The notes under the pieces were generated by a model. The model was not told the origin of the DNA. It ran no database searches and saw only the letters and a list, made by a program, of their open reading frames with translations. Both the position numbers and the translations under genes were made by a program. 64,000 nt of DNA from the human T2T-CHM13v2.0 reference genome, Homo sapiens, in the NCBI RefSeq assembly GCF_009914755.1, contig NC_060947.1. One strand, 5' to 3'. Shown one piece after another: positions 22,186-52,373 of this stretch. Position 1 is the stretch's first letter. Each line of letters opens with the position of its first letter.

Positions 22186-22399
22186 TTACCCAATAGTTTT
22201 TAAACTCTGTGAGACTTCAGCATTTTATACTGTTCTAGTGGGCTAGGGAAAAGCCATGTGTGATAGCACTGAATCCTACATCTCCCACTTCAAACAGAGC
22301 AGCTCAACTTTTATTTGTTTCTGCGTATATTGGAGGGTTGTATAAGGTCTGATCAAAAATCGGAAGGCTTCTGCTGTTAAATTTTGAAAACCAACTTAC

Positions 22400-23432
22400 T
22401 TATGTTAATTGAGATATAAATCATATATAATATAACTAACCCTTTTAAATTGTACATTTAAGTGGCTTTTAGTATACCTACAAAGTTGTACAGCCATAAT
22501 CACAAGTTAATAGCAGAACACCTTTGTCATCCCAAAAAGAAACTCTTTACCCATTAGTAGTAAAGTAGGTGCCATTCTCACCCTCACCCAGACCCTGGCA
22601 ACAACTAATCTACTTTCTGTTTTTGTGGATTTGCCTATTCCAGTCATTTCATGAAAATTGCTAAATGGACTATAGCCTTTTGTGTCTAGATTATTTTACT
22701 TCTTATATTTTTATGTTTATTCTTATAGTAGCATTTATCAGTACTTCATTCCATTTTATCGTTGAGTAATATTCTATGGTTTGTATAATAAAATATTTTG
22801 TTTATCCATTCTTTAGATGGACATTTGGGTTATTTCCACTTTCTTGCTCTTATGAATAATGTGGCTATGAATAATTGTGTATAAAGATATTGGGTAAAAA
22901 TATATTTTCAATGCTCTTCGAATATAGCTTGGAGTACACTTGCTGGGCAATATGGTAACTTTATGTTTAACTTTTTCAGGAATTACCAAATTGTTTTCCA
23001 AAGTGGCTGCAAAATTTGCCATTTTCACTAGCAACATATGAGCATTCCAATGTCACCATATCTTCAAAAACAAATTATAATTTTTTTAATTAAACTCATT
23101 ATTATGGCTGTGAAGTTTTGCATTGTAGACTTGATTTGCATGCTCTTAATAACTAATGATATTAAGCTTATATTTTGGGCTTATTGGCCATTTGTATAGC
23201 TTATTTGAAGGAAAACACTTTGATTTTTTTATTGGATTGACTACTTATTGTTGAATTATACGTTCTCTATATATTCTGTATATCAGATCCTTATAAGACA
23301 TACGGTTTACAGATATGTTCTCCCTTTGTGTAGATTGTCTTTTTATTTTCTAGATGCTATTATTTGTAGTATAAATGGCTTTTACTTTAATAAAGCTTTA
23401 TTTATTTATTTTTTTATTTGGTTACTTGTGCT
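22400..23432 (-). mobile_element. L1MB-type 3' end
   Basis: ttaattgagatataa...ccctggcaacaactaatctactttctgt...gatggacatttgggttatttccac. Confidence 0.8.
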
Positions 23433-23944
23433 TTCACCAAACTATTCTGACTCTATAATTTTATGTAATAAGTAATTGATGCCAGAGTGATCTAATAAAG
23501 TTCATAATTCTAGTTAAGATTCTAATTAATTGTGACATAAAACTTGTACTATAAATTATTGAGCCCACATTTCAAGAAGGTTTTAAGACTTAACATACTT
23601 ATACACTTTCTAACACATAAGTGCTATTGAGAAAAAATTATCTGAACTATCGTGAAAGAGGGCCAAAGACACACAATCCTATGCGGAAGGCTGAAAAACT
23701 AAACTTAATTATTCCTAGACATATTGAACTATGGAAATTGTCATGTGCTATAATTATTATGTTTTAAAAGTTCAAGAAACTTTGTAAAATATCAAAATCA
23801 TATACATTATGCATATATATATATGAAGAAATTATATACATGCAGTTTTGGATATATGTGCAAAGGAGAAATTATATGATATGTACATATGCACATATAT
23901 TATATATATTTTTATATATTCATACTGCTTACAAACAATATATG

Positions 23945-24293
23945 CAGTTGGCCTTCTGTATGAGTGGGTTTTGCAGCCATGGGTTTCATGTCAGTGAATT
24001 CAACCAAATCAGAAAAACAAATATTCAGCAAAATACTCCCACAAAGTTCCAAAAAGCAGAAGTTGAATTTGCCACACTCTGAGTACTATCTTGGATCCAT
24101 GTGAATGACGTGATGTGTAGGCATTGTATTAGGTATTATAAGTAATCTAGAGATTATCTAAAGCATGTGAGAGGATGTGCATAGGTTATATGCAAATACT
24201 TCATCATTCTATATAAGGACTTGGGCATTCACAGATTTTATTACTTGAGGGCCACCTTAGCACCAATTATTCATAAATACCAAGGGACAACTG
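23945..24293. mobile_element. MER2/MER2B (TcMar-Tigger) element
   Basis: TIRs cagttggcctt / aagggacaactg; gtattaggtattataagtaatctagagat core. Confidence 0.8.
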
Positions 24294-24495
24294 GACATTT
24301 ATGATACAGAACACAAGATCATAAGTAGTTTTGAAATTGTATTGAATATTGAGCAAAAATAAAAATATGCATTCTATAAGCTCTGACTTTGTTGAGAAAT
24401 TTATAATCATAAGCTTACAAAGTTTATAGGCTCTAAGGAGTTACTATTCATTTCCTCCTTTTACAGTTGCCTCACAGAGTGCTTCTGTCCACAGC

Positions 24496-25430
24496 ATATA
24501 TTTATATATTATATTTATATATATTATTAAATATATACTTATATATTATATTTATATATATTATTAAATATATATTTATATATTATATTTATATATATTA
24601 TTAAATATATATTTATGTATTATATTTATATATATTATTAAATATATATTTATGTATTATATTTATATATATTATTAAATATATATTTATATATTATATT
24701 TATATATTATTAAATATATATTTATATATTATATTTATATATATTATTAAATATATATTTATATATTATATTTATATATATTATTAAATATATATTTATA
24801 TATTATATTTATATATTATTAAATATATATTTATATATTATATTTATATATTATTAAATATATATTTATATATTATATTTATATATTATTAAATATATAT
24901 TTATATATTATATTTATATATATTATTAAATATATATTTATATATTATATTTATATATATTATTAAATATATATTTATATATTATATTTATATATATTAT
25001 TAAATATATATTTATATATTATAGTTTATATATTATTAAATATATATTTATATATTATATTTTATATATTATTAAATATATATTTAAATATTATATTTTA
25101 TGTTATTAAATATATATTTCTATAGTATATTTTTATATGTTATTAAATATATATTTATATAGTATGTTTATATATATTATTAAATATATATTTATATAGT
25201 ATATTTTTATATGTTATTAAATATATATTTATATAGTATGTTTATATATATTATTAAATATATATTTATATAGTATATTTATATATTATATTTATATATT
25301 ATTAAATATGTATATATTATATTTATATATATCTTTATGTATGTATATATTATATTTATATATCGTTAAATATGTGCATATATATTATATTTATATATCG
25401 TTAAATACATATGTATATATTATATTTATA
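24496..25430. repeat. Almost pure-AT minisatellite, 37-bp unit (35-bp variants), TATATTATTAAATATATATTTATATATTATATTTATA
   Basis: Roughly 25 tandem units read directly; the last units gain C/G (tatcgttaaatatgtgca, tatcgttaaatacatatg). Confidence 0.95.
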
Positions 25431-28400
25431 GGTGTCGTAAAATACCGACGTATATATTATATTTATAGGGGTTGTAAAATACCGACATATATATTATATT
25501 TATAGGGGTCGTAAAATACCGATGTATATATTATATTTATAGGGGTCGTAAAATACTGAAGTATATATTATATTTATAGGTATCGTAAAACACCGATGTA
25601 TATATTATATTTATAGGTATCGTAAAATACCGACGTATATATTATAGGTATCGTAAAATACCGACGTATATATTATATTTATAGGTGTCGTAAAATACCG
25701 ACGTATATGTTATATTCATCAGTGTCGTAAAATACCAACGTATATGTTATATTCGTAGGTGTCATAAAATACTGATGTATATGTTATATTCATAGGTGCC
25801 GTAAAATACCGACATATATGTTATATTCGTCGGTGTCATAAAATACCGACGTATATCTTATATTCGTCAGTGTCGTGAAATACCGACGTATATCTTTTAT
25901 TCGTCAGTGTAGTGAAACACCGACGTATATTTTTTATTTGCTGGTGTCGTAAAATACTGACGTATATCTTACATTTGCAGGTGTCGTAAAATACCGACGT
26001 ATAACTTATAATCGCAGGTGTCATAAAATACTGATGTAAATCTTATATTCGCTTGTATCATAAAATACTGACATATATTATGTTTATAGGTATCGTAAAA
26101 TACCGACGTATATATTATATTTATAGGTATCGTAAAATACCGCCGTATATATTATAGGTATCGTAAAATACCGACGTACATCGGTGTCATGAAATACCGA
26201 AGTATATCTTATATTCGTACGTGTTGTGAAATACCGACGTATATCTCATATTAGTCGGTGTCGTGAAATACCGACGTATATCTTTTATTCGTTGGTGTAG
26301 TGAAACACCGACATATATTTTTTATTTGCCGGTGTCGTAAAATACCGACGTATATCTTACATTCACAGGTGTCATAAAATACCGACGTATAACTATTCGC
26401 AGGTGTCATAAAATACCGACGTAAATCTTATATTCGCTTGTGTCATAAAATACCGAAATATATGTTATATTCACAGGTGCCATAAAATACCGATGTATAT
26501 GTTATATTCGTCGTTGTCATGAAACACCGACGTATACCTTATATTAGTCGGTGTCGTGAAATACCAACGTATATATTATATTTGTAGGTGTTGTAAAATA
26601 ACGTCATATATATTATATTTGTAGGTGTCGTAAAATACCGACGTATATAGTATAGGTGTCGTGAAATACCGACGTACATATTATATTCCTGGTGTCGCAA
26701 AATAACGACATATATATTACATTTGTAGGTGTCGTAAAATACCGACGTATATAGTATAGGTGTCGTGAAATACCAACGTATATCTTATATTCGTAGGTGT
26801 CGTGAAATTCCGTCGTATATGTTATATTCGTCGGTGTCGTAAAATACCGACGTGTATGTTATATTCGTCGCTGTCGTAAAATAAGGACATATATGTTACA
26901 TTCGTCGGTGTCATAAAATACCGATGTATATGTCACATTCGTCGTTGTCGTGAAATACCGACGTATACCTTATATTAGTCAGTGTCGTGAAATACCGACG
27001 TATATATTATATTTGTAGGTGTCATAAAATAACGTCATATATATTATATTTGTAGGTGTCGTAAAATACCGACGTATATAATATAGGTGTCGTGAAATAC
27101 CGACGTATGTATTATATTCGTAGGTGTCATGAAATTCCGTCGTATATGTTATATTCGTCGGTGTCGTAAAATACTGACGTATATGTTATATTCGTCGGTG
27201 TCGTAAAATACCGATATATATCTTAGATTCGTCGGTGTCATAAAATAAGGACGTATATGTTACATTCGTCAGTGTCATAAAATAACGACGTATATGTTAC
27301 ATTCGTCGTTGTCGTGAAATACCGACGTATACCTTATATTAGTCGGTGTCGTGAAATACCGGCGTATATATTATATTCATAGGTGTCGTAAAATAACGAC
27401 ATATATATTATATTTGTAGGTGTCGTAAAATACTGGCGTATATATTATAGTCTTCCGTGTCGTAAAATACCGACGTATTTGTTATAATCGTCGGCATCGT
27501 AAAATACCGACGTATATGTTATGTTCATCGGTGTCATAAAATAACAACATATATATTATATTTGTAGGTGTCGTAAAATACCGACATATATAGCATAGGT
27601 GTCGTGAAATACCGACGTATAATATTCGTAGGTGTCGTGAAATACCGACGTATATATTATATTCATAGGTGTCGTAAAATAACGACATATATATTATATT
27701 TGTAGGTGTCGTAAAATACCGACGTATATAGTATAGGTGTCGTGAAATACGGACGTATATATTATATTCGTAGGTGTCGTGAAATACCGACGTATATCTT
27801 ATATTCATAGGTGTCGTGAAATTCCGTCATATATGTTATATTCGTCGGTGTCGTAAAATACCAACGTATATCTAAGTCGGTGTCGTAAAATAAGGACGTA
27901 TATGTTACATTCGTCGGTGTCGTAAAATATCGACGTATATGTTACGTTCGTGGTTGTCGTGAAATACCGACTTATACCTTATATTAGTCAGTGTCGTGAA
28001 ATACCGGCGTATATTTTATATTCGTAGGTAAAATAACGACATATATATTATATTTGTAGGTGTCGTGAAATACCGACGTATATCTTATATTCATAGGTGT
28101 CGTGAAATTCCGTCGTATATGTTATATTCGTCGGTGTCGTAAAATACGGACGTATGTGTTATATTCGTCGGTGTCGTAAAATACCGACGTATATCTTAGA
28201 TTCGTCGGTGTCGTAAAATACCGACGTATATCTTAGATTCGTCGGTGTCGTAAAATACCGACATATATCTTAGATTCGTCGGTGTCGTAAAATACCGACG
28301 TATATGTTATATTCGTTGCTGTCGTAAAATACCGACGTATATCTTAGATTCGACAGTGTCGTAAAATACCGAAGTATATCTTATATTCGATGATGTCGTA

Positions 28401-31400
28401 AAATACCGACGTATATCTTGTATTCACTGATGTCGTAAAATACTGACGTTTTTCTTACTTTCGCAGGTGTCATAAAATACAGGTGTATAACATAATCGCA
28501 GGTGTCATAAAATACCGACATAAATCTTATATTCGCTTGTGTCATAAAATACCGAAATATATGTTATATTCACAGGTCTCATAAAATACCGATGTATATG
28601 TTATATTCGTCGGTGTCGTAAAATACCGACGTATATCTTAGATTCGTCGGTGTCGTAAAATACCGACGTATATGTTATATTCGTCGATGTCGTAAAATAC
28701 CGACGTATATCTTAGATTCGACGGTGTCGTAAAATACCGAAGTATATCTTATATTCGAGGATGTCGTAAAATGCCGACGTATATCTTATATTCACTGGTG
28801 TCGTAAAATACTGACGTGCATCTTACATTCACAGGTGTCATAAAATACAGGTGTATAACTTATAATCACAGGTGTCGTAAAATACCGACGTAAATGTTAT
28901 ATTCGCTTGTGTCATAAAATACCGAAATATATGTTATATTCACAGGTGTCATAAAATACCGATGTATAATATTCGTCGGTGTCGTAAAATACCGACGTAT
29001 ATGTTATATTCGTAGGTGCCGTAAAATACCGACGTATATGTTATATTCTTCCGTGTCGTAAAATACCGACGTATCTGTTATATTCGTCGGTGTCGTAAAA
29101 TACCGACGTATATGTTATATTCGTCGCTGTCGTAAAATACCGACGTATATCTTAGATTCGACGGTGTCGTAAAATACCGAAGTATATCTTATATTCGAGG
29201 ATGTCGTAAAATGCCGACGTATTTTACGTATGTATATGTTGTATTCGTAGGTGCCGTAAAATACCGACGTATCTGTTATATTCTTCCGTGTCGTAAAATA
29301 CCGACGTATCTGTTATAATCGTCGGTGTCGTAAAATACCGACGTATGTATCATAGTCTTCCGTGTCGTAAAATACCGACGTATTTGTTATAATCGTCAGC
29401 GTCTTAAAATACCGACGTATATGTTATATTTGTCGGTGTCGTAAAATAACGACATATATGTTATATTTGTAGGTATCGTAAAATACCGACGTATATAGCA
29501 TAGGTGTCGTGAAATACCGACGTATATATTATATTCGTAGGTGTCGTGAAATACCGACGTATATCTTATATTCGTAGGTGTAGTAAAATAACGACGTATA
29601 TGTTTTATTCGTTGGTGTCGTGAAATAACGACGCATATGTTACATTCGTTGGTGTCGTAAAATACCGACGTATATAGTATAGGTGTCGTGAAATACCAAC
29701 GTATATCTTATATTCGTAGGTGTCGTGAAATTCCGTCGTATATGTTATATTCGTTGGTGTCGTAAAATACCGACGTATATGTTATATTCGTCGGTGTCGT
29801 AAAATAAGGACGTATATGTTACATTCGTTGCTGTCATAAAATACCGACGTATATGTTACATTCGTCGTTGTCGTGAAATACCGACGTATACCTTATATTA
29901 GTCGGTGTCGTGAAATACCGACGTATATATTATATTCGTAGGTGTCATAAAATAACGTCATATATATTATATTTGTAGGTGTCGTAAAATACCGACGTAT
30001 ATAGTATAGGTGTCGTGAAATACCGACGTATATATTATATTCCTGGTGTCGTAAAATAACGACATATATAATATATTTCTACGTGTCGTAAAATACCGAC
30101 GTATATAGTATAGGTGTCGTGAAATACCGACGTATGTATTATATTCGTAGGTGTGAAATTCCCTCGTATATGTTGTATTCGTCGGTGTCGTAAAATACCG
30201 ACGTATATGTTTTATTCGTCGGTGTCGTAAAATACCAACAGATATCTTAGATTCGTCGGTGTCATAAAATAAGGACGTATATGTTACATTCGTCGGTGTC
30301 GTAAAATACCGACGTATAAGTTACATTCGTCGTTGTCGTGAAATACCGACGTATACCTTATATTAGTCGGTGTCGTGAAATACCGGCGTATATATTATAT
30401 TCGTAGGTGTCGTAAAATAATGACATATATATTATATTTGTAGGTGTCGTAAAATACCGACGTATATAGTATAGGTGTCGTGAAATACCGACGCATATAT
30501 TATATTCGTAGGTGTCGTGAAATACCAACGTATATCTTATATTCATAGGTGTCGTGAAATTCCGTCGTATATGTTATATTCGTAGGTGCCGTAAAATACC
30601 GACGTATCTGTTATATTCTTCCGTGTCGTAAAATACCGACGTATCTGTTATAATCGTCGGTGTCGTAAAATACCGACGTATATATTATAGTCTTCCGTGT
30701 CGTAAAATAACGACATATATATTATATTTGTAGGTGTCGTAAAATACCGACATATATAGCATAGGTGTCGTGAAATACCGACGTGTATATTATATTCGTA
30801 GGTGTCGTGAAATACCGACGTATATATAATATTCGTAGGTGTCATAAAATAACGACATATATATTATATTTGTAGGTGTCGTAAAATACCGACGTATATA
30901 GTATACGTGTCGTGAAATACCGACGTATATATTATATTCGTAGGTGTCGTGTAATACCAACATATATCTTGTATTCGTAGCTGTCGTGAAATTCCGTCGT
31001 ATATGTTATATTCGTCGGTGGCTTAAAATACCGACGTATATGTTGTATTCGTCGGTATCGTAAAATAAGGACGTATATGTTACATTCGTCGGTGTCATAA
31101 AATACCGACGTATACGTTACATTCGTCGTTGTCGTGAAATACCTACGTATACCTTATATCAGTCGGTGTCGTGAAATACCGATGTATATATTATATTCGT
31201 AGGTGTGGTAAAATAACGTCATATATATTATATTTGTAGGTGACGTAAAATACCGAAGTATATAGTATAGGTGTCGTGAAATACCGAAGTATATATTATA
31301 TTCCTGGTGTCGTAAAATAACGACATATATATTATATTTGTAGGTGTCGTAAAATACCGACGTATATAGTATAGGTGTCGTGAAATACCGACGTATGTAT

Positions 31401-34400
31401 TATATTCGTAGGTGTCGTGAAATTCCGTCGTATATGTTATATTCGTCGGTGTCGTAAAATACCGACGTGTATGTTATATTCGTCGGTGTCGTAAAATACC
31501 GACGTATATCTTAGATTCGTCGGTGTCATAAAATAAGGACGTATATGTTACATTCGTCAGTGTCGTAAAATACCGTCGTATATGTTACGTTCGTCGTTGT
31601 CGTGAAATACCGACGTATACCTTATATTAGTCGGTGTCGTGAAATACCGGCGTATATATTATATTCGTAGGTATCGTAAAATAACGACATATATATTATA
31701 TTTGTAGGTGTCGTGAAATACCAACGTATATCTTATATTCATAGATGTCGTGAAATACCGACGTATATATTATATTCGTAGGTGTCGTGAAATACCAACG
31801 TATATCTTATATTCGTAGGTGTCGTGAAATTCCGTCGTATATGTTATATTCGTCGGTGTCGTAAAATATCGACGTATACGTTATATTCGTCGGTCGTAAA
31901 ATACCGACGTATATGTTATATTCGTTGGTGATGTATATGTTATATTCGTCGCTGTCGTAAAATACCGACGTATATCTTAGATTCGTCGGTGTCGTAAAAT
32001 ACCGACGTATATGTTATATTCTTCCGTGTCGTAAAATACCGACGTATCTGTTATATTCGTCGGTGTCGTAAAATACCGACGTATATGTTATATTCATCGC
32101 TGTCATAAAATACCGACTTATATCTTAGATTCGGCGGTGTCGTAAAATACCGAAGTATATCTTATATTCGATGATGTCGTAAAATACCGACGTATATCTT
32201 ATATTCACTGGTGTCGTAAAATACTGACGTATATCTTATATTCACTGGTGTCGTAAAATACTGACGTATATCTAACTTTCGCAGGTGTCATAAAATACAG
32301 GTGTATAACTTATAATCTCAGGTGTCGTAAAATACCGACGTAAATCTTATATTCGCTTGTGTCATAAAATACCGAAATATATGTTATATTCACAGGTGTC
32401 ATAAAATACCGATTTATATGTTATATTCGTCGGTGTCGTAAAATACCGACGTATATGTTTTATTCGTCAGTGTCGTAAAATAACGACGCATATGTTACAT
32501 TCGTTTGTGTCGTAAAATACCGACGTATATAGTATAGGTGTCGTGAAATACTGACGTACATATTATATTCGTAGGTGTCGTGAAATACCAACGTATATCT
32601 TATACTCGTAGGTGTCGTGAAATTCCGTCGTATATGTTATATTCGTCGGTGTCGTAAAATACCGACGTGTATGTTGTATTCGTCGGTGTCATAAAATACC
32701 GACGTATATGTTACATTCGTCGTTGTCGTGAAATACCTACGTATATCTTATATTAGTCGGTGTCGTGAAATACCGACGTATATATTATATTCGTAGGTGT
32801 CGTAAAATAACGTCATATATATTATATTTGTAGGTGTCGTAAAATACCGACGTATATAGTATAGGTGTCGTGAAATACCAACGTATGTATTATATTCGTA
32901 GGTGTCGTGAAATTCCATCGTATATGTTATATTCGTCGGTGTCATAAAATACCGACGTGTATGTTATATTCGTCGGTGTCGTAAAATACCGACGTATATC
33001 TTAGATTCGTCGGTGTCATAAAATAAGGACGTATATGTTACATTCGTCGGTGTCGTAAAATACCGACGTATATGTTACGTTCGTCGTTGTGGTGAAATAC
33101 CGACGTATACCTTATATTAGTCGGAGTCGTGAAATACCGGCGTATATATTATATTCATAGGTGTCGTAAAATAACGACATATATATTATATTTGTAGGTG
33201 TCATGAAATACCGACGTATATCTTATATTCATAGGTGTCGTGAAATTCTGTCGTATATGTTATATTCGTCGGTGTCGTAAAATACCGACGTGTACGTTAT
33301 ATTCGTCGCTGTCGTAAAATACCGACGTATATCTTAGATTCGTCGGTGTCGTAAAATACCGACGTATATGTTATATTCGTCGCTGTCGTAAAATACCGAC
33401 GTATATCTTAGATTCGACAGTGTCGTAAAATACCGAAGTATATCTTATATTCGATGATGTCATAAAATACCGACGTATATCTTGTATTCACTGGTGTCGT
33501 AAAATACTGACGTTTTTCTTACTTTCGCAGGTGTCATAAAATACAGGTGTGTAACTTATAATCGCAGGTGTCGTAAAATACCGACATAAATCTTATATTC
33601 GCTTGTGTCATAAAATACCGAAATATATGTTATATTCACAGGTGTCATAAAATACCGATGTATATGTCATATTCGTAGGTGTCGTGAAATACCGACGTAT
33701 ACATTATATTCGTAGGTGTCGTAAAATAACGACATATATATTATATTTGTAGTTGTCGTAAAATACCGACGTATATAGCATAGGTGTCGTGAAATACCGA
33801 CGTATATATTATATTCGTAGGTGTCGTGAAATACCAACGTATATCTTATATTCGTAGGTGTCGTGAAATTCCGTCGTATATGTTATATTCGTCGGTGTCG
33901 TAAAATACCGACGTATATGTTATATTCGTCGGTGTCGTAAAATAAGGTCGTATATTTTACATTCGTTGGTGTCATAAAATACCGACGTATATGTTACATT
34001 TGTCGTTGTCGTGAAATACCGACGTATACCTTATATTAGTCGGTGTCGTGAAATACCGAAGTATATATTATATTTGTAGGTGTCGTAAAATACCGTCATA
34101 TATATTATATTTGTAGGTGTCGTAAAATACCGACGTATATAGTATAGGTGTCGTGAAATACCGACGTATATATTATATTCCTGGTGTCGTAAAATAACGA
34201 CATATATATTATATTTGTACGTGTCATAAAATACCGACGTATATAGCATAGGTGTCGTGAAATACCGACGTATGTATTATATTCGTAGGTGTCGTGAAAT
34301 TCCATCGTATATGTTGTATTCGTCGGTGTCGTAAAATACCGACGTATATGTTTTATTCGTCGGTGTCGTAAAATACCAACAGATATCTTAGATTCGTCGG

Positions 34401-37400
34401 TGTCATAAAATAAGGACGTATATGTTACATTCGTCATTGTGAAATACCAAAGTATACCTTATATTAGTCGGTGTCGTGAAATACCAGCGTATATATTATA
34501 TTCGTAGGTGTCGTAAAATAACGACATATATATTATATTTGTAGGTGTCGTAAAATACCGACGTATATAGTATAGGTGTCATGAAATACCGACGCATATA
34601 TTATATTCGTAGGTGTCGTGAAATACCAACGTATATCTTATATTCGTAGGTGTCGTGAAATTCCGTCGTATATGTTATATTCGTCGGTGTCGTAAAATAC
34701 CGACGTATTTATTATAGTCTTCCGTGTCGTAAAATACCGACGTATTTGTTATAATCGTCGGCATCGTAAAATACCGACGTATATGTCATGTTCGTCAGTG
34801 TCGTAAAATAACGACATATATATTATATTTGTAGGTGTCGTAAAATACCGACGTATATAGCATAGGTGTCGTGAAATACCGACCTATATATTATATTCGT
34901 CGGTGTCGTGAAATACCAACGTATATCTTACATTGGTAGGTGTCGTGAAATTCCGTCGTATATGTTATATTCGTCGGTGTCGTAAAATACCGACGTATAT
35001 GTTGTATTCGTCGGTGTCGTAAAATACCGACGTATATGTTATATTCTTCGGTGTTGTAAAATACCGACGTATATCTTAGATTCGTCACTGTCGTAAAATA
35101 CCGACATATATGTTATATTCGTCGGTGTCGTAAAATACCGACGTATATCTTAGATTCGTCGGTGTCGTAAAATACCGACATATATGTTATATTTGTTGGT
35201 GATGTATATGTTATATTCGTTGGTGTCGTAAAATACCGACGTATATCTTAGATTCGTCGGTGTCATAAAATACAGAAGTATATCTTATATTCGATGATGT
35301 CGTAAAATACCGACGTATATCTTATATTCACTGGTGTCGTAAAATACTGACTTGTATCTTACTTTCGCAGGTGTCATAAAATACAGGTGTATAACTTATA
35401 ATCTCAGGTGTCGTAAAATACCGACGTAAATCTTATATTCGCTTGTGTCATAAAATACCGAAATATATGTTATATTCACAGGTGTCATAAAATACCGATG
35501 TATATGTTATATTCGTCGGTGTTGTAAAATACCAATGTATCTGTTATATTCGTCGGTGTCGTAAAATACCGACGTATATGTTTTATTCGTCAGTGTCGTA
35601 AAATAACGACGCATATGTTACATTCGTCGGTGTCGTAAAATACCGACGTATATAGTATAGGTGTGAAATACCGACGTATATATTATATTCGTAGGTGTCG
35701 TAAAATAACGACATATATATTATATTTGTAGGTGTCGTAAAATACCGACGTATATAGTATAGGTGTCGTGAAATACCGAAGTATATATTATATTCCTGGT
35801 GTCGTAAAATAACGACATATATATTATATTTGTAGGTGTCGTAAAATACCGACGTATATACTATAGGTGTCGTGAAATACCAACGTATGTATTATATTCG
35901 TTGGTGTCGTGAAATTCCGTTGTATATGTTATATTCGTCGGTGTCGTAAAATACCAACGTATATCTTAGATTCGTCAGTGTCATAAAATAAGGACGTATA
36001 TGTTACATTCGTCGGTGTCGTAAAATACCGACGTATATGTTACGTTCGTCGTTGTGGTGAAATACCGACGTATACCTTATATTAGTTGGTGTCGTGAAAT
36101 ACCGGCGTATATATTATATTCGTAGGTGTCGTAAAATGACGACATATATATTATATTTGTAAGTGTCATGAAATACAGACGTATATCTTATATTCATCGG
36201 TGTCGTGAAATTCCGTCGTATATGCTATACTCGTCGGTGTCGTAAAATACCGAAGTATATGTTATATTCGTCGCTGTCGTAAAATACCGACGTATATCTT
36301 AGATTCGACAGTTTCGTAAAATACCGAAGTATATCTTATATTCGATGATGTCGTAAAATACCGACGTATATCTTGTATTCACTGGTGTCGTAAAATACTG
36401 ACGTTTTTCTTACTTTCGCAGGTGTCATAAAATACAGGTGTGTAACTTATAATCGCAGGTGTCGTAAAATACCGACATAAATCTTATATTCGCTTGTGTC
36501 ATAAAATACCGAAATATATGTTATATTCACAGGTGTCAGAAAATACCGATGTATATGTTATATTCGTAGGTGTCGTGAAATACCGACGTATACGTTATAT
36601 TCGTAGGTGTCGTAAAATAACGACATATATATTATATTTGTAGGTGTCGTAAAATACCGACATATATAGCATAGGTGTCGTGAAATACCGACGTGTATAT
36701 TATATTCATAGGTGTCGTGAAATACCGACGTATATATAATATTCGTAGGTGTCATAAAATAACGACATATATATTATATTTGTAGGTGTCGTAAAATACC
36801 GACGTATATAGTATACGTGTCGTGAAATACCGACGTATATATTATATTCGTAGGTGTCGTGAAATACCAACATATATCTTGTATTCGTAGCTGTCGTGAA
36901 ATTCCGTCGTATATGTTATATTCGTCGGTGGCTTAAAATACCGACGTATATGTTGTATTCGTCGGTATCGTAAAATAAGGACGTATATGTTACATTCGTC
37001 GGTGTCATAAAATACCGACGTATACGTTACATTCGTCGTTGTCGTGAAATACCTACGTATACCTTATATCAGTCGGTGTCGTGAAATACCGATGTATATA
37101 TTATATTCGTAGGTGTGGTAAAATAACGTCATATATATTATATTTGTAGGTGACGTAAAATACCGAAGTATATAGTATAGGTGTCGTGAAATACCGAAGT
37201 ATATATTATATTCCTGGTGTCGTAAAATAACGACATATATATTATATTTGTAGGTGTCGTAAAATACCGACGTATATAGTATAGGTGTCGTGAAATACCG
37301 ACGTATGTATTATATTCGTAGGTGTCGTGAAATTCCGTCGTATATGTTATATTCGTCGGTGTCGTAAAATACCGACGTGTATGTTATATTCGTCGGTGTC

Positions 37401-40400
37401 GTAAAATACCGACGTATATCTTAGATTCGTTGGTGTCATAAAATAAGGACGTATATGTTACATTCGTCAGTGTCGTAAAATACCGTCGTATATGTTACGT
37501 TCGTCGTTGTCGTGAAATACCGACGTATACCTTATATTAGTCGGTGTCGTGAAATACCGGCGTATATATTATATTCGTAGGTGTCGTAAAATAACGACAT
37601 ATATATTATATTTGTAGGTGTCGTGAAATACCAACGTATATCTTATATTCATAGATGTCGTGAAATACCGACGTATATATTATATTCGTAGGTGTCGTGA
37701 AATACCAACGTATATCTTATATTCGTAGGTGTCGTGAAATTCCGTCGTATATGTTATATTCGTCGGTGTCGTAAAATATCGACGTATACGTTATATTCGT
37801 CGGTCGTAAAATACCGACGTATATGTTATATTCGTTGGTGATGTATATGTTATATTCGTCGCTGTCGTAAAATACCGACGTATATCTTAGATTCGTCGGT
37901 GTCGTAAAATACCGACGTATATGTTATATTCTTCCGTGTCGTAAAATACCGACGTATCTGTTATATTCGTCGGTGTCGTAAAATACCGACGTATATGTTA
38001 TATTCATCGCTGTCATAAAATACCGACTTATATCTTAGATTCGGCGGTGTCGTAAAATACCGAAGTATATCTTATATTCGATGATGTCGTAAAATACCGA
38101 CGTATATCTTATATTCACTGGTGTCGTAAAATACTGACGTATATCTTATATTCACTGGTGTCGTAAAATACTGACGTATATCTTACTTTCGCAGGTGTCA
38201 TAAAATACAGGTGTATAACTTATAATCTCAGGTGTCGTAAAATACCGACGTAAATCTTATATTCGCTTGTGTCATAAAATACCGAAATATATGTTATATT
38301 CACAGGTGTCATAAAATACCGATTTATATGTTATATTCGTCGGTGTCGTAAAATACCGACGTATATGTTTTATTCGTCAGTGTCGTAAAATAACGACGCA
38401 TATGTTACATTCGTTTGTGTCGTAAAATACCGACGTATATAGTATAGGTGTCGTGAAATACTGACGTACATATTATATTCGTAGGTGTCGTGAAATACCA
38501 ACGTATATCTTATACTCGTAGGTGTCGTGAAATTCCGTCGTATATGTTATATTCGTCGGTGTCGTAAAATACCGACGTGTATGTTGTATTCGTCGGTGTC
38601 ATAAAATACCGACATATATGTTACATTCGTCGTTGTCGTGAAATACCTACGTATATCTTATATTAGTCGGTGTCGTGAAATACCGACGTATATATTATAT
38701 TCGTAGGTGTCGTAAAATAACGTCATATATATTATATTTGTAGGTGTCGTAAAATACCGACGTATATAGTATAGGTGTCGTGAAATACCAACGTATGTAT
38801 TATATTCGTAGGTGTCGTGAAATTCCATCGTATATGTTATATTCGTCGGTGTCATAAAATACCGACGTGTATGTTATATTCGTCGGTGTCGTAAAATACC
38901 GACGTATATCTTAGATTCGTCGGTGTCATAAAATAAGGACGTATATGTTACATTCGTCGGTGTCGTAAAATACCGACGTATATGTTACGTTCGTCGTTGT
39001 GGTGAAATACCGACGTATACCTTATATTAGTCGGAGTCGTGAAATACCGGCGTATATATTATATTCATAGGTGTCGTAAAATAACGACATATATATTATA
39101 TTTGTAGGTGTCATGAAATACCGACGTATATCTTATATTCATAGGTGTCGTGAAATTCTGTCGTATATGTTATATTCGTCGGTGTCGTAAAATACCGACG
39201 TGTACGTTATATTCGTCGCTGTCGTAAAATACCGACGTATATCTTAGATTCGTCGGTGTCGTAAAATACCGACGTATATGTTATATTCGTCGCTGTCGTA
39301 AAATACCGACGTATATCTTAGATTCGACAGTGTCGTAAAATACCGAAGTATATCTTATATTCGATGATGTCATAAAATACCGACGTATATCTTGTATTCA
39401 CTGGTGTCGTAAAATACTGACGTTTTTCTTACTTTCGCAGGTGTCATAAAATACAGGTGTGTAACTTATAATCGCAGGTGTCGTAAAATACCGACATAAA
39501 TCTTATATTCGCTTGTGTCATAAAATACCGAAATATATGTTATATTCACAGGTGTCATAAAATACCGATGTATATGTCATATTCGTAGGTGTCGTGAAAT
39601 ACCGACGTATACATTATATTCGTAGGTGTCGTAAAATAACGACATATATATTATATTTGTAGTTGTCGTAAAATACCGACGTATATAGCATAGGTGTCGT
39701 GAAATACCGACGTATATATTATATTCGTAGGTGTCGTGAAATACCAACGTATATCTTATATTCGTAGGTGTCGTGAAATTCCGTCGTATATGTTATATTC
39801 GTCGGTGTCGTAAAATACCGACGTATATGTTATATTCGTCGGTGTCGTAAAATAAGGACGTATATTTTACATTCGTTGGTGTCATAAAATACTGACGTAT
39901 ATGTTACATTTGTCGTTGTCGTGAAATACCGACGTATACCTTATATTAGTCGGTGTCGTGAAATACCGAAGTATATATTATATTTGTAGGTGTCGTAAAA
40001 TACCGTCATATATATTATATTTGTAGGTGTCGTAAAATACCGACGTATATAGTATAGGTGTCGTGAAATACCGACGTATATATTATATTCCTGGTGTCGT
40101 AAAATAACGACATATATATTATATTTGTACGTGTCATAAAATACCGACGTATATAGCATAGGTGTCGTGAAATACCGACGTATGTATTATATTCGTAGGT
40201 GTCGTGAAATTCCATCGTATATGTTGTATTCGTCGGTGTCGTAAAATACCGACGTATATGTTTTATTCGTCGGTGTCGTAAAATACCAACAGATATCTTA
40301 GATTCGTCGGTGTCATAAAATAAGGACGTATATGTTACATTCGTCATTGTGAAATACCAAAGTATACCTTATATTAGTCGGTGTCGTGAAATACCAGCGT

Positions 40401-43400
40401 ATATATTATATTCGTAGGTGTCGTAAAATAACGACATATATATTATATTTGTAGGTGTCGTAAAATACCGACGTATATAGTATAGGTGTCATGAAATACC
40501 GACGCATATATTATATTCGTAGGTGTCGTGAAATACCAACGTATATCTTATATTCGTAGGTGTCGTGAAATTCCGTCGTATATGTTATATTCGTCGGTGT
40601 CGTAAAATACCGACGTATTTATTATAGTCTTCCGTGTCGTAAAATACCGACGTATTTGTTATAATCGTCGGCATCGTAAAATACCGACGTATATGTCATG
40701 TTCGTCAGTGTCGTAAAATAACGACATATATATTATATTTGTAGGTGTCGTAAAATACCGACGTATATAGCATAGGTGTCGTGAAATACCGACCTATATA
40801 TTATATTCGTCGGTGTCGTGAAATACCAACGTATATCTTACATTGGTAGGTGTCGTGAAATTCCGTCGTATATGTTATATTCGTCGGTGTCGTAAAATAC
40901 CGACGTATATGTTGTATTCGTCGGTGTCGTAAAATACCGACGTATATGTTATATTCTTCGGTGTTGTAAAATACCGACGTATATCTTAGATTCGTCACTG
41001 TCGTAAAATACCGACATATATGTTATATTCGTCGGTGTCGTAAAATACCGACGTATATCTTAGATTCGTCGGTGTCGTAAAATACCGACATATATGTTAT
41101 ATTTGTTGGTGATGTATATGTTATATTCGTTGGTGTCGTAAAATACCGACGTATATCTTAGATTCGTCGGTGTCATAAAATACAGAAGTATATCTTATAT
41201 TCGATGATGTCGTAAAATACCGACGTATATCTTATATTCACTGGTGTCGTAAAATACTGACTTGTATCTTACTTTCGCAGGTGTCATAAAATACAGGTGT
41301 ATAACTTATAATCTCAGGTGTCGTAAAATACCGACGTAAATCTTATATTCGCTTGTGTCATAAAATACCGAAATATATGTTATATTCACAGGTGTCATAA
41401 AATACCGATGTATATGTTATATTCGTCGGTGTCGTAAAATACCAATGTATCTGTTATATTCGTCGGTGTCGTAAAATACCGACGTATATGTTTTATTCGT
41501 CAGTGTCGTAAAATAACGACGCATATGTTACATTCGTCGGTGTCGTAAAATACCGACGTATATAGTATAGGTGTGAAATACCGACGTATATATTATATTC
41601 GTAGGTGTCGTAAAATAACGACATATATATTATATTTGTAGGTGTCGTAAAATACCGACGTATATAGTATAGGTGTCGTGAAATACCGAAGTATATATTA
41701 TATTCCTGGTGTCGTAAAATAACGACATATATATTATATTTGTAGGTGTCGTAAAATACCGACGTATTTAGTATAGGTGTCGTGAAATACCGACGTATGT
41801 ATTATATTCGTAGGTGTCATGAAATTCCGTCGTATATGTTATATTCGTCGGTGTCGTAAAATACCGACGTATATGTTATATTCATCGGTGTCGTAAAATA
41901 CCGACAGATATCTTAGATTCGTCAGATTCGTCGGTGTCATAAAATAAGGATGTATATGTTACATTCGTCAGTGACGTAAAATACCGACGTATACCTTATA
42001 TTAGTCGGTGTCGTGAAATACCGGCGTATATATTATATTCGTAGGTGTCGTAAAATAACGACATATATATTATATTTGTAGGTGTCGTAAAATACCGACG
42101 TATATAGTATAGGTGTCGTGAAATACCGAAGTATATATTATATTCGTAGGTGTCGTGAAATACCAACATATATCTTATATTCATAGATGTCGTGAAATTC
42201 CGTCGTATATGTTATATTCGTCGGTGTCGTAAAATACCGACGTATATGTTATATTCGTCGGTGTCGTAAAATACCGACGGATATGTTATATTCGTCGCTG
42301 TCATAAAATACCGACGTATATCTTAGATTCGACGGTGTCGTAAAATACCAAAGTATATCTTATATTCGATGATGTCGTAAAATACCGACGTATATCTTAT
42401 ATTCACAGGTGTTGTAAAATACTGACATATATCGTACTTTCGCAGGTGTCATAAAATACCGATGTATATGTTACATTCGTTGGTGTCGTAAAATACCGAC
42501 ATATACGTCATATTCGTTACTGTTGTAAAATACCAACATATATGTTATATTCGTCGGTGTCGTAAAATACCAACTTATATCTTTTATTCGTCGGTGTTGT
42601 GAAATACTGACCTATATCTTTTATTGGTCAGTGTCGTGAAATACCAACGTATATCTTATATTCGTAGGTTTCGTGAAACACCGACGTATATATTATATTC
42701 GTATGTGTCGTGAAATACCGACGTATATCTTATATTCTTAGGTGTCATCAAATGCCGACATATATATTATTATCTTAGATTCGTCGGTGTCGTAAAATAC
42801 CGACGTATATGTTATATTTATAGGTGTCATAAAATACCGACGTATATCTTATATTCATAGGTGTCATCAAATGCCGACATATATATTATATTCGTAGGTG
42901 TCATAAAATAACGACGTATATATTATGTTTGTTGGTGTTGTAAAGTACCGACGTATATATTATAGGTGTCGTAAAATACTGACCTACATATTTTATTTAT
43001 AGGTGTTGTAAAATACCAATGTATATATTATAGGTGTCGTAAAATACCGACGTATATATTATATTTATAGGTGTCATAAAATACCGACGTATATATTATA
43101 TTTATAGGTGTTGTAAAATACCGACATATTTATTATAGGTATCGTAAAATACTGACGTATATATTATATTTATAGGTATCGTAAAATACCGACATATATA
43201 TTATATTTATAGGTATCGTAAAATACCGACATACATATTACAGGTGTCGTAAAATACCGACGTATAGATTATATTTGTAGGTGTTGTAAAACACCGACGT
43301 GTATATTATATTTATAGGTGTCGTAAAATAACGACATATATATTATATTTATAGGTGTCGTTAAATACCGATATATATATTATATTTATATTTATCGTTA

Positions 43401-43409
43401 AATACCGAC
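25431..43409. repeat. ~18 kb CpG-dense, AT-rich satellite/VNTR; 37-bp consensus GGTGTCGTAAAATACCGACGTATATGTTATATTCGTC (~500 monomers by length), with 31-bp variants and higher-order structure
   Basis: Continuous head-to-tail monomers; variants recur in fixed orders; no interspersed TE. Confidence 0.98.
30697..41767. repeat. Internal duplication with 5,910-bp period (30697-35857 matches 36607-41767)
   Basis: ORF-track peptides recur at exactly +5910 (32748/38658, 34031/39941, 34105/40015, 34891/40801); line-by-line near identity. Confidence 0.92.
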
Positions 43410-43465
43410 ATATATATTATATTTATATATATCATTAAATATATATTTATATAATATATTTAATA
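43410..43465. repeat. Short AT-only terminal monomers of the array
   Basis: tatatcattaaatatatatttatataatatattt matches the left-hand AT unit. Confidence 0.8.
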
Positions 43466-46400
43466 AATGTTTATTGAATTTCATGGAAATTTTACCCAGG
43501 CAGAGTTGGGCATTCTGTTTTAATGCCAAACAAACATGAAACAAACTTACTCCACACAACCCTGATAATAACCAGCCAATATTTTCTTTTTTTTTCTTTC
43601 TTAGCCCATTTATTTGCCCATACATCTGTAATAGAGACACACTGTGAGTCAGGTTTACATTTTCCCAGCAAACAGAATCATCAAACAATAGGATTTTAAA
43701 GATCTGTCTTGCTTGTATATAGGTTGTATTTCCCTAATTTTGCATATGTTAGCATTTCACCTGTTATCATCTGTGGAGTTCCCTAGATTCTGTTTCCTTC
43801 TGAAATCTGATTTCAAAAGAGGAGGAATGTTTATAAAATGTTTTATGTGCCATATCTTATATAAATATGAAAACCACATTTTCATATGGGAAAAAAATTA
43901 TAATTATTATACCTTCCTTACAATTACGTTGCTCAAAGAAAGTTAATAACTTATCCATATCATTGAGCTTTTCAGTGCCAGAGTTTAGATTTTTATCCCG
44001 GTCTGCTTAACTCCAATGCGATTCTCTTTTCTAAAGCATAAGACCAAACAAAACTATTGTTATCTTATAAAGATTACATTTCCATTGGAAATGTCACATA
44101 ATAGAAATTAAAATCTAGTATAAAGTAGGCCACTATAATTCTTTGATTCAAAAATATGAAATGGACTTTTTCCCTCTGTATCAACCTTCCATGCACCATT
44201 TCCCAACATTTTTCATTCTTTTCAAGCTGATATTCACAAAACTTTAAGTTAGAATAATGATTGTGAAACAGCATGAAACAAAGAAAGCTAAAAATACCCT
44301 AAAAGGTGAATGAATACAGGAAAACACTTTGCATAACTTGGTAAGGATGAATTTAAAATAGTTTATATTGCATAACTTTTAAGACAAAAAAACTATTGCA
44401 GAATACAATTTTCCTGCACATTACATTGAACATTTTATGCCAATTACATTAACATTTTTCCGATTCATGTTTTAGCCTGCAATCATGCACTAGATCTCAG
44501 AAAACTCATATGAAAAATAAAACAAAAACAAACCGACATGAAATAGACAATTGCTGGTCACAGTGGTAAGATAATAATTTTATGCCATAAGAAAACACAA
44601 CCAGAATATTTTCCTAGGTAATAAACTGTGTTTCCTTTTGAAATATTTACTACTAGACACTTCATCTCAATCCAGTTGAAACAACCTTTAAAACATCCCA
44701 AAGGAGTGCCATACTCTGTTCCAGAGAATTTTTGTATGTGGCTTCTCTTCGACACCCCTTAGTAATCTATTGCTAGTTTTCTCTATCTTCTCTTTTTCCT
44801 TGTTTTGTTCAACCTGAAGTGTCTCTCTTCCCACAGGCTTTAAAACATTTATATTAGTGTTTGTTGGGAGGGAATCTTGTAATGAATACATTATTAATAA
44901 ATCATTAATAACATTTATTAATGGATCATTAATATTTGCTACCTAGATATCTGGCTTTCTTTTTGTGGGTTTCATTTTCCATACTACCATGTGATCATTT
45001 AAGTCAAAGATGGAAAATAGATTTCATTTTGTGTTCCATATTCAAATAGATGGTAGTGGCATGCTACATTGAGATAAGAGTAGGAGATTATGTCTTCTTT
45101 AAATGAAGAAAAGTTACATGAACATAGATAGTTGGGTGGGTGGCTAGTGATGACAGTGTGCTATGTATTTCCCATTTTGATTGAAAATGTAGTCACTATT
45201 GAAAATATTTTCCTGTTGTATTAATTGAATATGCCCCCAAGATACACCTCTCTGATCTAGTCATACAAACTGTGAGAAGAATCTAGGATTTCTTGTAACT
45301 GCTGTGTTGTCCTAGACTGCAATATATTCCATACTAGCATTTATTGAATGCAGACTCTGCATTAGGCACAATTTTAAGTTGTTTACAGGTGTGTTAGTTA
45401 CTGTTATTATCTTCAATGTGCAGATTAGGTAACTGAGGAAACGGGGTTAGGTAAAAACACTTCAATTTCCTTCAACATATACTTTCTTTAGATAAAATGT
45501 TTTTGAGGAGTATAAGGCTATGGAAGAACAGGCAGCATTCTTGTTCCTGAAATGGTTAGTTAAATGTAAGTACCATTTATTGGAATTGATTTCAAGGCCA
45601 TAATTCACAAGTCAGACAGTGAACAATCTTTACCCTTGTACAGGATGCCTAAATTTTCTTAATTTCTCCATTGGACAGACAATACTTGGGAATCATCTAT
45701 GAAGTTGGTTTAAAAAGTTCAACTCTTTCAAGTTGTTATATTTAAAAAGATCATTATGACTAACAACCAATTCACTTGCTGTGAGAAGAGGTGGATGTGA
45801 GTCATAAAATAACTTTTAAGTCAGAAAATTGGATTTAATTCAGACTTTTCCTCCTCTTACATCAATTGAATGACAGGGATAAATGAACTTGATTTAGCTA
45901 GATTTAGAATTGGAGTTGTCTTTCTTATCTATCAAAAGCATGGCAGGACTGATCATCTGGATATCATCAGCTGATGATCAAACATGTCAAATTAATGCAG
46001 AAAAAATAAAATAATTTGTGGCATTATATTCTATAATTTATTATGTTGATTTATGACACTTTATTTATTGCAAAAATATGGCATCAAAATTTGGAATTTT
46101 ATCTACATTACGAATTGGGTAAAGTAACTTTTAATTACATTGTATACTTTAAGAAATGTGTTAGCCATTCTACTGCAATTGTAAAAATATGTCCACCCAT
46201 TAAATTTAAAACCTCCTAATTGAGATAATTCTAATACAATTTTTAAAAATTCTTCAAAGCTTCAAAAACTTCATATTTCTGATCTTGTAATAAGTATAAA
46301 ACTAAGAGATGCTTTTTCTGTGTAAGCAATGATTGTTAATATAATAGCTATTGAGTTTTCTCTTTTAGTTGAAAGCATTGTATTTTGACATCAGAAGTTA

Positions 46401-47075
46401 CATGTGAAACAATAATTGTTATAATAATTTAATTACCCACTTTAAATGACCGTATATAATGTAGTTGCTAATATATGCTGTTTTTTCTACAGAACATCAT
46501 TGACAAGATTATGTACATATTCACTATTAGCTTCGAGAACTTTTTATGTACAAAAGGCTAGTAAAAGCGCATTCAAAATTACATGTTTTAGGCTGAGGTC
46601 TCACTCCTACAGTGCCTTCAGCAAAGTTTTTGGCCTCAGATCATATTCTCAGGCAAATTGTTTTCTATAAAAACTTCCTTTCTGTATTGAAAGGCTGAAG
46701 GAATAAAATAAGGAAAAATCCCTTCATTTCTCTCAGACAGTGCAAAGGGAGAAAAATTCTCTGGATAAATACACTGACAGTTTTATTTAATGATTTGAAT
46801 ATAAATTAAATAAGTGTTTAAGAAGTAGTTTAGCTAGTTATACACTTCCTTCATTTAGACAAATAATACAATCACATTTTTTGGCATTATTGGAAATAGC
46901 ACACAATTTAGGGTCAGTTATTTCTAATTCTGATCATTCAAATTTCAAGCTCTTTGACTTTCTATGTTTTTAACATTGGCCAAGTCATTAATCTCTTAAA
47001 TGTTCAATGTATTCAATTTAGAACTTTATAAAATGTATAAAATATAGCTAATAATACAGGTACAACCTACTTCAT

Positions 47076-47240
47076 GACAGAATACAACATCCCAAAATAT
47101 TCCACTCTGGCATATTGGCAATTTCAGTTAAAGGCACTTAAAAAACAGCAGATTCAAGAAAAATGCTCTGATCTTCCTTCTCCCTTTTGTTTCTTAAAAG
47201 CAGAAGATGAAATTCCCACTTGAAAGAAGTCCTCCCTATA
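47076..47240 (+). mobile_element. MER34-like ERV1 LTR 5' fragment
   Basis: tgacagaatacaacatcccaaaatattccactctgggcat...aaaggcacttaaaaaacagcaga. Confidence 0.65.
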
Positions 47241-47603
47241 TGATATGGCTTGACTGTGTCCCCACCCAAATCTCATCTTGAGTTGTAGCTCCCATAATCC
47301 CCATGTGTCATGGGAGGGACCCAGTAGGAGGTAATTGAATCATGGGAGTAGATTTTTCCTGTGCTGTTCTTGTGATACTGAATAAGTCTCATGAGATCTG
47401 ATGGTTTTATAAAGGGTAGTTCCCCTGCATGTGCTTGTGCCAGCTGCCCTGTAAAGTCATGTATTTGCTTCTCCTTTGCCTTTTGCTATGATTGTGAGGC
47501 CTCCCCAGCCATGCAGAACTGTGAGTCCATTAAACCTCTTTTCTTTATAAATTACCCAGTCTTTGGTATGTCTTTATCAGCAGCATGAGAACAGACTAAT
47601 ACA
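47241..47603 (+). mobile_element. THE1 (C/D-like) MaLR solo LTR
   Basis: tgatatggcttgactgtgtccccacccaaatctcatcttg...gaacagactaataca; perfect TSD CTATA. Confidence 0.95.
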
Positions 47604-47769
47604 CTATATCAGAAAAAAAGTAACATTCTGCATACTGGGTGAGATAGAGACACATAAATGCCTCAAATGATCATTTACCAATGTGCTATGTGTTTATGGA
47701 GTGAAAAATAACTTTAAAAACATTTTAAGATATCTTGCATAGGCATAGGACATAAAACATTTTTTTCCT

Positions 47770-48095
47770 TCAGAGGTTTTCTCAAAATGTCACCTATTTA
47801 GTGTAATCTTCCCTGACCATTGTATTTAAAACTGCAATCTCTTCCTCTCCCAGGTATAACCACCTCAGAGTACCTCTTACTGTCTTTTCAGGTATTATTG
47901 TTCTTCTTAATATTTATCACTTTCTGACTTATATATTACAAATATATTTGTTTGTTTGTGTCTCTTCACTATATTTTGAACAGAAATTTTATTTTTCTAT
48001 TTTGTTCAATACCGTTTCCCCAACTTTTGGAATAATGACTGGCACGTAATAGCTGCTCAATAAGTATTTTTTAAATAGATAAATTAGTAAGTGAT
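47770..48095 (+). mobile_element. L2a 3' end
   Basis: aaatgtcacc...ttccctgacca...ctggcacgtaatagctgctcaataagtatt. Confidence 0.7.
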
Positions 48096-48218
48096 CAGAA
48101 AATGCTTTATATAATGGCCAACAAAGACATATAATTTTAAAATATATGAATTTTCACTTTATTGATTTATTGGCTTTCAGTTCACAGTGATTTATGACAT
48201 AAAACTTATACATTTTCA

Positions 48219-48621
<403 letters not shown>

Positions 48622-49508: not shown

Positions 49509-49690
49509 TAGTGGTTCTCAAAGTGTGATTCCAGACAACCAGCATCAATGTCACTTGGGAAATTGTTAAAAATGCCAATATGGGGGCCCCGCCTTGGATT
49601 TACTGGATCGGAACACCTGGCTGTGGTGGCCAGTAAACTGTTAGAACAAGCCTATCAGATGATTCTCATTCAGAGTGGAATGTGAAAACG
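49509..49690 (+). mobile_element. MER5A
   Basis: agtggttctcaaagtgtg...cagcatcaatgtcacttgggaaattgttaaaaatgc...aacaagcc. Confidence 0.8.

Positions 49691-51264: not shown

Positions 51265-51713
<449 letters not shown>

Positions 51714-51982: not shown

Positions 51983-52373
<391 letters not shown>

What the first reader, a model, noticed from the sequence alone, without database searches (positions are those of the whole stretch)
25431..43409. Most monomers carry a posterior-HOX/CDX consensus site (GTCGTAAAA / GTCATAAAA)
Seen: the conserved non-palindromic 10-mer is GTCGTAAAAT, with common variants GTCATAAAAT and GTCGTGAAAT. Established: GTCGTAAA is the in vitro consensus of Abd-B-class homeodomains (HOX10-12; TCGTAAA for HOX13) and CDX1/2, (G)TCATAAA is their alternative site, and several of them prefer the methylated CpG form. 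Inference: hundreds of sites at 37-bp spacing could act as a homotypic enhancer or a titration sink that survives CpG deamination. The match may be coincidental.
Basis: partly seen in the sequence, partly recalled or inferred. Interest (0 to 1): 0.7.

Follow-up and report, generated by a model that had tools for sequence, protein, structure and literature searches.

The report
Repeat array marks X-to-Y copy breakpoint
This 18-kb array of 37-base repeats on the human X carries a HOX/CDX-type word in most units, likely by accident, but it is where the X-derived block on the human Y begins, and the joins suggest that block and a 290-kb Y duplication likely arose in one copying accident.

Summary
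Observation holds: 310 of 496 monomers carry TCGTAAA or TCATAAA; 128 carry TCGTGAA, which lacks the TAAA core. GTCGTAAA is a published CDX2 optimum. A regulatory role is not supported: all copies descend from one unit; the motif mutates as fast as the rest in orthologous X/Y sequence (7/205 vs 17/566); 387,391 equally good (C/G)CAATAAA sites exist elsewhere; no gene is annotated within 100 kb. What the array does mark: its only other copy is on Yp, truncated on the left and joined through a 4-bp microhomology (GGTG) to the end of one IR3 arm. The other end of the X-transposed region joins the start of the same arm through three chromosome 7 shards, again with 4-bp microhomologies. These are the two 'closure' junctions left unresolved in the published circular-intermediate model (PMC7450558, Table S3 N/A). 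Inferred: one template-switching event made both the X-transposed block and the second IR3 copy. Circle versus insertion plus two inversions stays open. Not found in open literature; three key subscription papers were unreadable.

The parts
24496..25413 (+). AT-only 37-bp array, about 25 units, in the same register as the CpG-rich array; last units are intermediates. Absent from the Y copy.
   Evidence: TRF period 37, 25.6 copies, 91% matches; monomer alignment; exact unit found 7 times, all here, in the genome
25414..43410 (+). CpG-rich 37-bp minisatellite, 496 monomers, GC 34%, CpG observed/expected 3.0. Unit = 27-bp quasi-palindrome plus the 10-bp GTCGTAAAAT spacer. The Y copy begins inside it.
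   Evidence: 88 CpG/kb vs 7 in flanks; Y copy of 140 units at C24:6200825-6205895
30679..41795 (+). Recent internal tandem duplication: 30679-35885 repeated at 36589-41795, shift 5.9 kb (163 monomers), 0.49% different
   Evidence: differences listed
43411..43474 (+). Right-hand terminal AT-type units, shared with the Y copy
43471..55851 (+). First unique DNA of the X-transposed region, 98-99% identical to Yp (checked this far only)
   Evidence: 99.07% over 3563 bp, 98.06% over 5566 bp, 98.74% over 3489 bp
22300..24460 (+). X-only left flank: no Y counterpart, so the X-Y homology ends within the array
   Evidence: genome search gave only the self hit and old interspersed-repeat hits of at most 77% (40 of 8460 candidates scored); window 10001-24480 has no high-identity match to the Y loci flanking the Y array

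Best explanation
The array is a minisatellite whose HOX/CDX-type word is likely a by-product of how the unit evolved, and it holds the point where the X-derived block on the Y begins, likely through a template-switching copy event. Shown: the unit differs from the adjoining AT-only unit at 13 positions, 12 of them A/T to G/C, with mutually complementary changes on the two arms of its palindrome; the TAAA half of the word is already in the AT-only unit and the GTCG half mirrors an arm. Shown: the Y copy starts mid-array and is joined by GGTG to the end of a 286-kb IR3 arm, whose start is joined to the far end of the X block through chromosome 7 shards. Inferred: the AT-only unit is ancestral; the CpGs are methylated in the germ line; a broken or stalled fork at the end of the Y IR3 sequence switched into the X array, copied 3.9 Mb of X, touched chromosome 7 and returned about 290 kb back on Y, making the X-transposed region and the second IR3 copy together. 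Whether the product was a circle that later entered a Y LINE, or a direct insertion followed by two inversions, is not resolved.
For: Only two loci genome-wide: 321 pattern matches = 265 X + 56 Y. Y right flank 99.07% identical to X, left flank not X-like. Y left flank matches the proximal IR3 arm up to the join (97.6%); that arm and three older Y paralogues run on into an Alu, so the array join is the derived state; overlap GGTG = monomer positions 18-21. Far end: X 91570785 = Y 5914561, overlap CAAT into chr7:27985275-240 (minus), then chr7:27985274-378, then chr7:28219168-279 (100%, 112 bp), overlap TGAA into the IR3 start. Three of five joins have 4-bp overlaps; about 2% expected each. Mid-arm IR3 spot check 100% over 2386 bp, inverted. 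Substitutions at IR3 ends (32/2334, 6/2204) are of the order of X-Y ones (27/3563, 29/3484, 49/4565). Same signature as clinical complex insertions (PMC5120786). Motif not spared; CpG sites change 13/104 vs 11/667. Arm covariation across the short loop: 46 compensatory cells vs 23.6 +/- 4.3 shuffled on X.
Against: One event, read after the fact: nothing shows the array caused the break. Hairpin potential is modest: fold z -0.5 to -1.7 in 4 of 4 stretches, perfect 7-bp arms in only 40 of 429 adjacent pairs. Covariation is not significant for compensatory cells on Y (p=0.155) or within monomers, and the shuffle ignores relatedness. The motif window is the most conserved part of the unit, and G>A (site-keeping) exceeds C>T at its CpG more than at other CpGs (55 vs 12; others 42/22, 23/19, 31/22, 16/20). 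The exact X-side break cannot be placed (best match 85%). IR3 ages are blurred by conversion. The first chr7 shard is about 94% identical and LINE-like, so its donor is less sure. No ape sequence was available, so direction and timing are inferred.
Confidence: 0.72

Rival explanations
1. The array is a working CDX/posterior-HOX platform (homotypic enhancer or titration sink) kept by selection.
For: GTCGTAAA is a CDX2 optimum and methylation helps binding. The X array holds 220 of the genome's 8,722 copies, 2.5%, in 18 kb. The motif is the most conserved window and shows the strongest G>A over C>T bias.
Against: No sparing of the motif in X/Y orthologous sequence. 128 of 496 units have TGAA. 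The CA state appears in the intermediate unit at the AT boundary (43411), so it may be ancestral. 387,391 competing sites. No annotated gene within 100 kb. One literature search found no binding report.
Confidence: 0.12
2. The array join is secondary: the X block first closed or inserted with other ends, and a later Y-to-Y duplication of IR3, with deletion, replaced the original junction.
For: PMC7450558 left the closure unresolved and blames such cases on later duplications or insertions. The Y array is truncated inside the repeat, and repeats shrink easily.
Against: A later insertion would have to land on and remove the one junction in 3.9 Mb. IR3-end and X-Y divergences are of the same order. 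Both IR3 joins carry the same style of scar.
Confidence: 0.15
3. The array's main biological role is as a dense methyl-CpG block in A/T-rich context that binds methyl-CpG readers and forms local heterochromatin.
For: 88 CpG/kb vs 7 in flanks; 1032 of about 1578 CpGs lie within 3 bp of a run of four A/T, a context recalled as favoured by MeCP2. CpG transitions dominate recent change.
Against: No chromatin data were available; methylation is inferred from mutation only; binding need not mean function.
Confidence: 0.1

Closest known systems
X-transposed region as circular-DNA-mediated duplication cSDP6 (Chicote et al. 2020, PMC7450558)
   Same: Same block and the same permuted order; their ancestral start, hg38 chrX:89,201,803, maps by offset to about window 36,750, inside this array (inferred, assumes no indels). 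I re-found their integration junction: 9-bp overlap at X 87835351-359, inserted in one Y LINE.
   Different: They resolved only the integration; closure is N/A in Table S3. Here the ends are not fused directly: a 286-kb IR3 copy and chr7 shards lie between them. That also gives a natural second inversion (IR3/IR3), which weakens their parsimony argument against two inversions.
Complex chromosomal insertions by FoSTeS/MMBIR (Gu et al. 2016, PMC5120786)
   Same: Short microhomologies, templated shards from a third chromosome, and a duplication at the insertion site (about 182 kb in one family).
   Different: Those are de novo or familial clinical events; this one is fixed in the human lineage and later rearranged.
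HOXB13/CDX2 dual-optimum sites (Morgunova et al. 2018, PMC5896879)
   Same: GTCGTAAA is an exact CDX2 optimum, 220 times.
   Different: HOXB13's CTCGTAAA is absent; TCA is a weaker site; a quarter of units lack TAAA; no sign of selection.
Large locus-specific VNTR arrays (Warburton et al. 2008, PMC2588610)
   Same: Locus-specific array over 10 kb with internal duplications.
   Different: No 37-bp X array in the Table 1 passage seen; this one is A/T-rich yet CpG-enriched and abuts its apparent AT-only precursor.

Membership tests
CDX/posterior-HOX binding site | Exact optimal 8-mer (GTCGTAAA for CDX2) | tested here: met
   220 copies; optimum from PMC5896879
CDX/posterior-HOX binding site | HOXB13 optimum CTCGTAAA | tested here: not met
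   0 copies
Homotypic enhancer or titration sink | Sites spared from mutation relative to neighbours | tested here: inconclusive
   Not spared in X/Y orthologous sequence, 7/205 vs 17/566, p=0.81, low power; but most conserved window across monomers
Homotypic enhancer or titration sink | Site number large against the genomic pool | tested here: not met
   220 vs 8,722 + 387,391
Homotypic enhancer or titration sink | Occupancy in cells and effect on a gene | not testable with these tools
   No ChIP, chromatin or expression data
Template-switch (MMBIR/FoSTeS-type) complex insertion | Microhomology at joins, no long homology | tested here: met
   GGTG, CAAT, TGAA at 3 of 5 joins; no X-Y homology beyond them
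Template-switch (MMBIR/FoSTeS-type) complex insertion | Templated shards from other loci | tested here: met
   Three chr7 pieces in a 236-bp insert
Template-switch (MMBIR/FoSTeS-type) complex insertion | Copy gain at the recipient site bounded by the joins | tested here: met
   Distal IR3 arm is bounded by both joins; proximal arm has native flanks at both ends; arms compared at both ends and one mid point only
Template-switch (MMBIR/FoSTeS-type) complex insertion | All joins made in one event | not testable with these tools
   Needs ape and archaic Y sequence; divergences only of similar order
Circular-intermediate duplication (cSDP) | Permuted block order in the same orientation | tested here: met
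Circular-intermediate duplication (cSDP) | Donor ends fused directly with at most a short scar | tested here: not met
   286 kb of Y DNA plus 236 bp lie between the ends
Palindrome-mediated fragile site | Long, stable hairpin or cruciform | tested here: inconclusive
   z -0.5 to -1.7; 40 of 429 perfect arm pairs; supercoiled extrusion not modelled

The most novel reading that the evidence does not exclude
The human-specific X-transposed region and the IR3 inverted repeat of Yp were born in one three-chromosome template-switching event (Y to X array to chromosome 7 to Y), with the entry point inside this palindromic CpG-rich minisatellite; IR3 is the insertion-site duplication, and its own recurrent inversion supplies the 'second inversion' that makes a DNA circle unnecessary.
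Probability: 0.55. Interest if true: 0.7.

Novelty: new member of a known kind. Interest (0 to 1): 0.55.

Why it matters
The X-transposed region (PCDH11X/Y, TGIF2LX/Y) is the largest human-specific gain on the Y, and how it arrived is unsettled: duplication then inversion (PMC3752934) or a DNA circle (PMC7450558). The junctions here fill the gap that the circle model left open, tie the origin of IR3, a recurrently inverting repeat, to the same event, and give base-level markers (a 112-bp chr7 shard, three microhomologies) that can be sought in ape and archaic genomes. The array also seems to preserve, side by side, an AT-only unit and its CpG-rich derivative, a readable case of CpG gain in a tandem repeat. 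The HOX/CDX idea alone would rate about 0.2.

Tried and rejected
Rfam scan of 20000-48000: no match at gathering thresholds. HOXB13 optimum: absent. Titration sink: rejected on numbers. Strong hairpin: not shown; within-monomer covariation not significant. LINE-LINE homologous crossover at the mid-block junction: the X and Y sides share only the 9-bp overlap in the stretches compared, and the two Y junction regions gave no hit to each other; I could not read the paper that proposed it. Placing the break on the X array: failed, 85% best match. A first self-BLAST for internal duplications printed nothing and was replaced by monomer-level comparison. In one search I dropped the first of six aligned X/Y blocks (326 bp, 51 mismatches) as non-orthologous before counting. 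Literature searches for the array or junction: 0 papers; 6; 1; 1, unrelated; noise; 1, unrelated; one search found PMC7450558. Ross 2005, Schwartz 1998, Hughes 2010 and Teitz 2018 were not held; Skaletsky 2003 was not tried. They may describe these junctions.
Full report
Observation. TRF finds a 37-bp array at 25379-43423 (493 copies, 76% matches) and an AT-only 37-bp array at 24496-25430. The main array is 34% GC with CpG observed/expected 3.0, against 0.21-0.23 in the flanks. 310 of 496 monomers carry TCGTAAA or TCATAAA, 128 carry TCGTGAA and 58 something else; the share is 62% after removing a recent 5.9-kb internal duplication and 64% (89 of 139) on Y.

Is it a HOX/CDX element? In passages of PMC5896879 (passages only) the optimal sites are CCAATAAA and CTCGTAAA for HOXB13 and the same with G for CDX2; TCA is bound more weakly; methylation raises HOXB13 affinity. 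The array has the CDX2 form 220 times and the HOXB13 form never. Binding in vitro is likely. But the copies are one amplified unit. A shuffled unit holds this 8-mer in 0.18% and one of five related 7-mers in 7.4% of shuffles; if 200-1200 8-mers are optimal for some factor (my assumption), 20-75% of 37-mers hold one. Against: in five orthologous X/Y blocks (771 sites; a sixth, non-orthologous block dropped) the motif differs at 7 of 205 sites and the rest at 17 of 566 (p=0.81); a quarter of units have lost TAAA; 387,391 (C/G)CAATAAA sites compete; no gene is annotated within 100 kb.

Where the word comes from. The AT-only and CpG-rich units align without gaps and differ at 13 positions, 12 of them A/T to G/C. 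Both ends of the array grade into AT-type units. Positions 14-20 and 31-37 are inverted arms in both units, with three fully compensatory double changes, one mismatch repaired and one partial (read). Across adjacent X monomers the arms covary (46 compensatory cells vs 23.6 +/- 4.3 in 1000 shuffles), but not within monomers and not significantly on Y. The TAAA half of the site exists in the AT-only unit, and GTCG is the reverse complement of arm positions 33-36. I infer an AT-only ancestor, CpG gain by templated copying between arms, and expansion from the middle; the direction needs ape sequence. CpG sites change at 13 of 104 against 11 of 667 other sites since X and Y split, which points to germ-line methylation. 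Folding is only mildly better than shuffles.

The breakpoint. The array has one other copy: 140 units on contig C24 (the Y) at 6200825-6205895; the 321 genome-wide pattern matches are 265 on X and 56 on Y. Right of the array X and Y are 99.07% identical; left of it they are unrelated. The Y copy lacks the AT-only block and starts mid-monomer. Its left flank is multi-copy Y DNA whose closest copy, at 9937129 on the minus strand, matches to the join. That copy and three older paralogues run on into an Alu, so the array join is derived, with a 4-bp overlap GGTG. The names IR3 and X-transposed region come from position and, partly recalled.

The other end. X 91570785 equals Y 5914561. Then come 236 bp: overlap CAAT, 36 bp of chr7:27985275-240 reversed, about 95 bp of chr7:27985274 onward, 112 bp identical to chr7:28219168-279, overlap TGAA, and the start of the same IR3 arm, whose partner at 10238668 again has native flanks. 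So one 286-kb arm carries both X junctions and the other (301.5 kb) none; a mid-arm sample is 100% identical and inverted. Three of five joins have 4-bp overlaps, about 2% each by chance. The two X blocks on Y meet X at 87835351-359 with a 9-bp overlap, and their outer Y flanks are consecutive pieces of one LINE, 13-17 bp apart in 5 of 5 paralogues, with short templated scars.

Mechanism. Most likely a fork at the end of the Y IR3 sequence switched into the X array, copied 3.9 Mb, touched chromosome 7 and returned about 290 kb back on Y. This matches clinical complex insertions with microhomology, third-chromosome shards and insertion-site duplication (PMC5120786; abstract and passages). Two routes then give today's order: the product as a circle entering the Y LINE, or a direct insertion followed by an end-joined inversion and an IR3/IR3 inversion. 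The junction sequences are the same under both. IR3 inversions recur in humans, though the reference state was judged ancestral among living lineages (10.1101/2022.12.01.518658, passages). That the array provoked the break is unproven.

What is known. PMC7450558 (main text parts 1-3 of 4, the methods supplement, and matched rows of the spreadsheet; figures, Table 2 and the slide file not seen) already proposes a circular intermediate for this block and resolves its integration, but lists the closure as N/A. The block is absent from ape Ys (10.1101/2023.11.30.569198, passages). Passages of PMC4065359, PMC3752934 and 10.1101/2022.12.01.518724 give the duplication-then-inversion account or boundaries without junction detail. 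PMC2588610's Table 1 passage lists no 37-bp X array. Searches found no description of the array, the GGTG join or the chr7 shards. Schwartz 1998, Ross 2005, Hughes 2010 and Teitz 2018 were not held, Skaletsky 2003 was not tried, and bioRxiv supplements were not seen; any may bear on novelty.

Verdict. Motif real, regulatory function unlikely (about 0.12). The array's firm significance is as the proximal breakpoint of the human X-to-Y transposition. New member of a known kind; interest 0.55.

Noticed in passing
window 52062-52373: Alu present on X and absent from the Y copy, with a flanking direct repeat and intact CpGs: likely inserted after the transposition.
   Followed up: partly
L053:5202-6171 (C24 about 6401200-6402170): About 970-bp element with many 97-98% copies genome-wide, inserted in the LINE 330 bp beyond the X-block junction; looks like a young solo LTR (label recalled).
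   Followed up: no
L053:4876-4915 (C24 about 6400876-6400915): Junction scar with a short five-base run repeated four to five times and a small inverted copy of nearby LINE sequence, like polymerase-theta end joining (recalled).
   Followed up: partly
C3:149545640-149549506: The multi-copy Y sequence left of the Y array has a 79% homologue on contig C3, perhaps its autosomal source.
   Followed up: no
C1:2955245-2955392: Another tandem repeat (35-bp spacing) carries GTCGTAAA in several units, showing that such words recur in unrelated arrays.
   Followed up: no
window 42527-43448 vs C24:6205091-6205920: Of 13 CpG transitions between orthologous X and Y units, 10 lost the CpG on X and 3 on Y, opposite to male-biased mutation; small numbers.
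   Followed up: no
window 25414-43410: A recurring 31-bp monomer (37 of 495) lacks six bases in the short loop of the palindrome.
   Followed up: no
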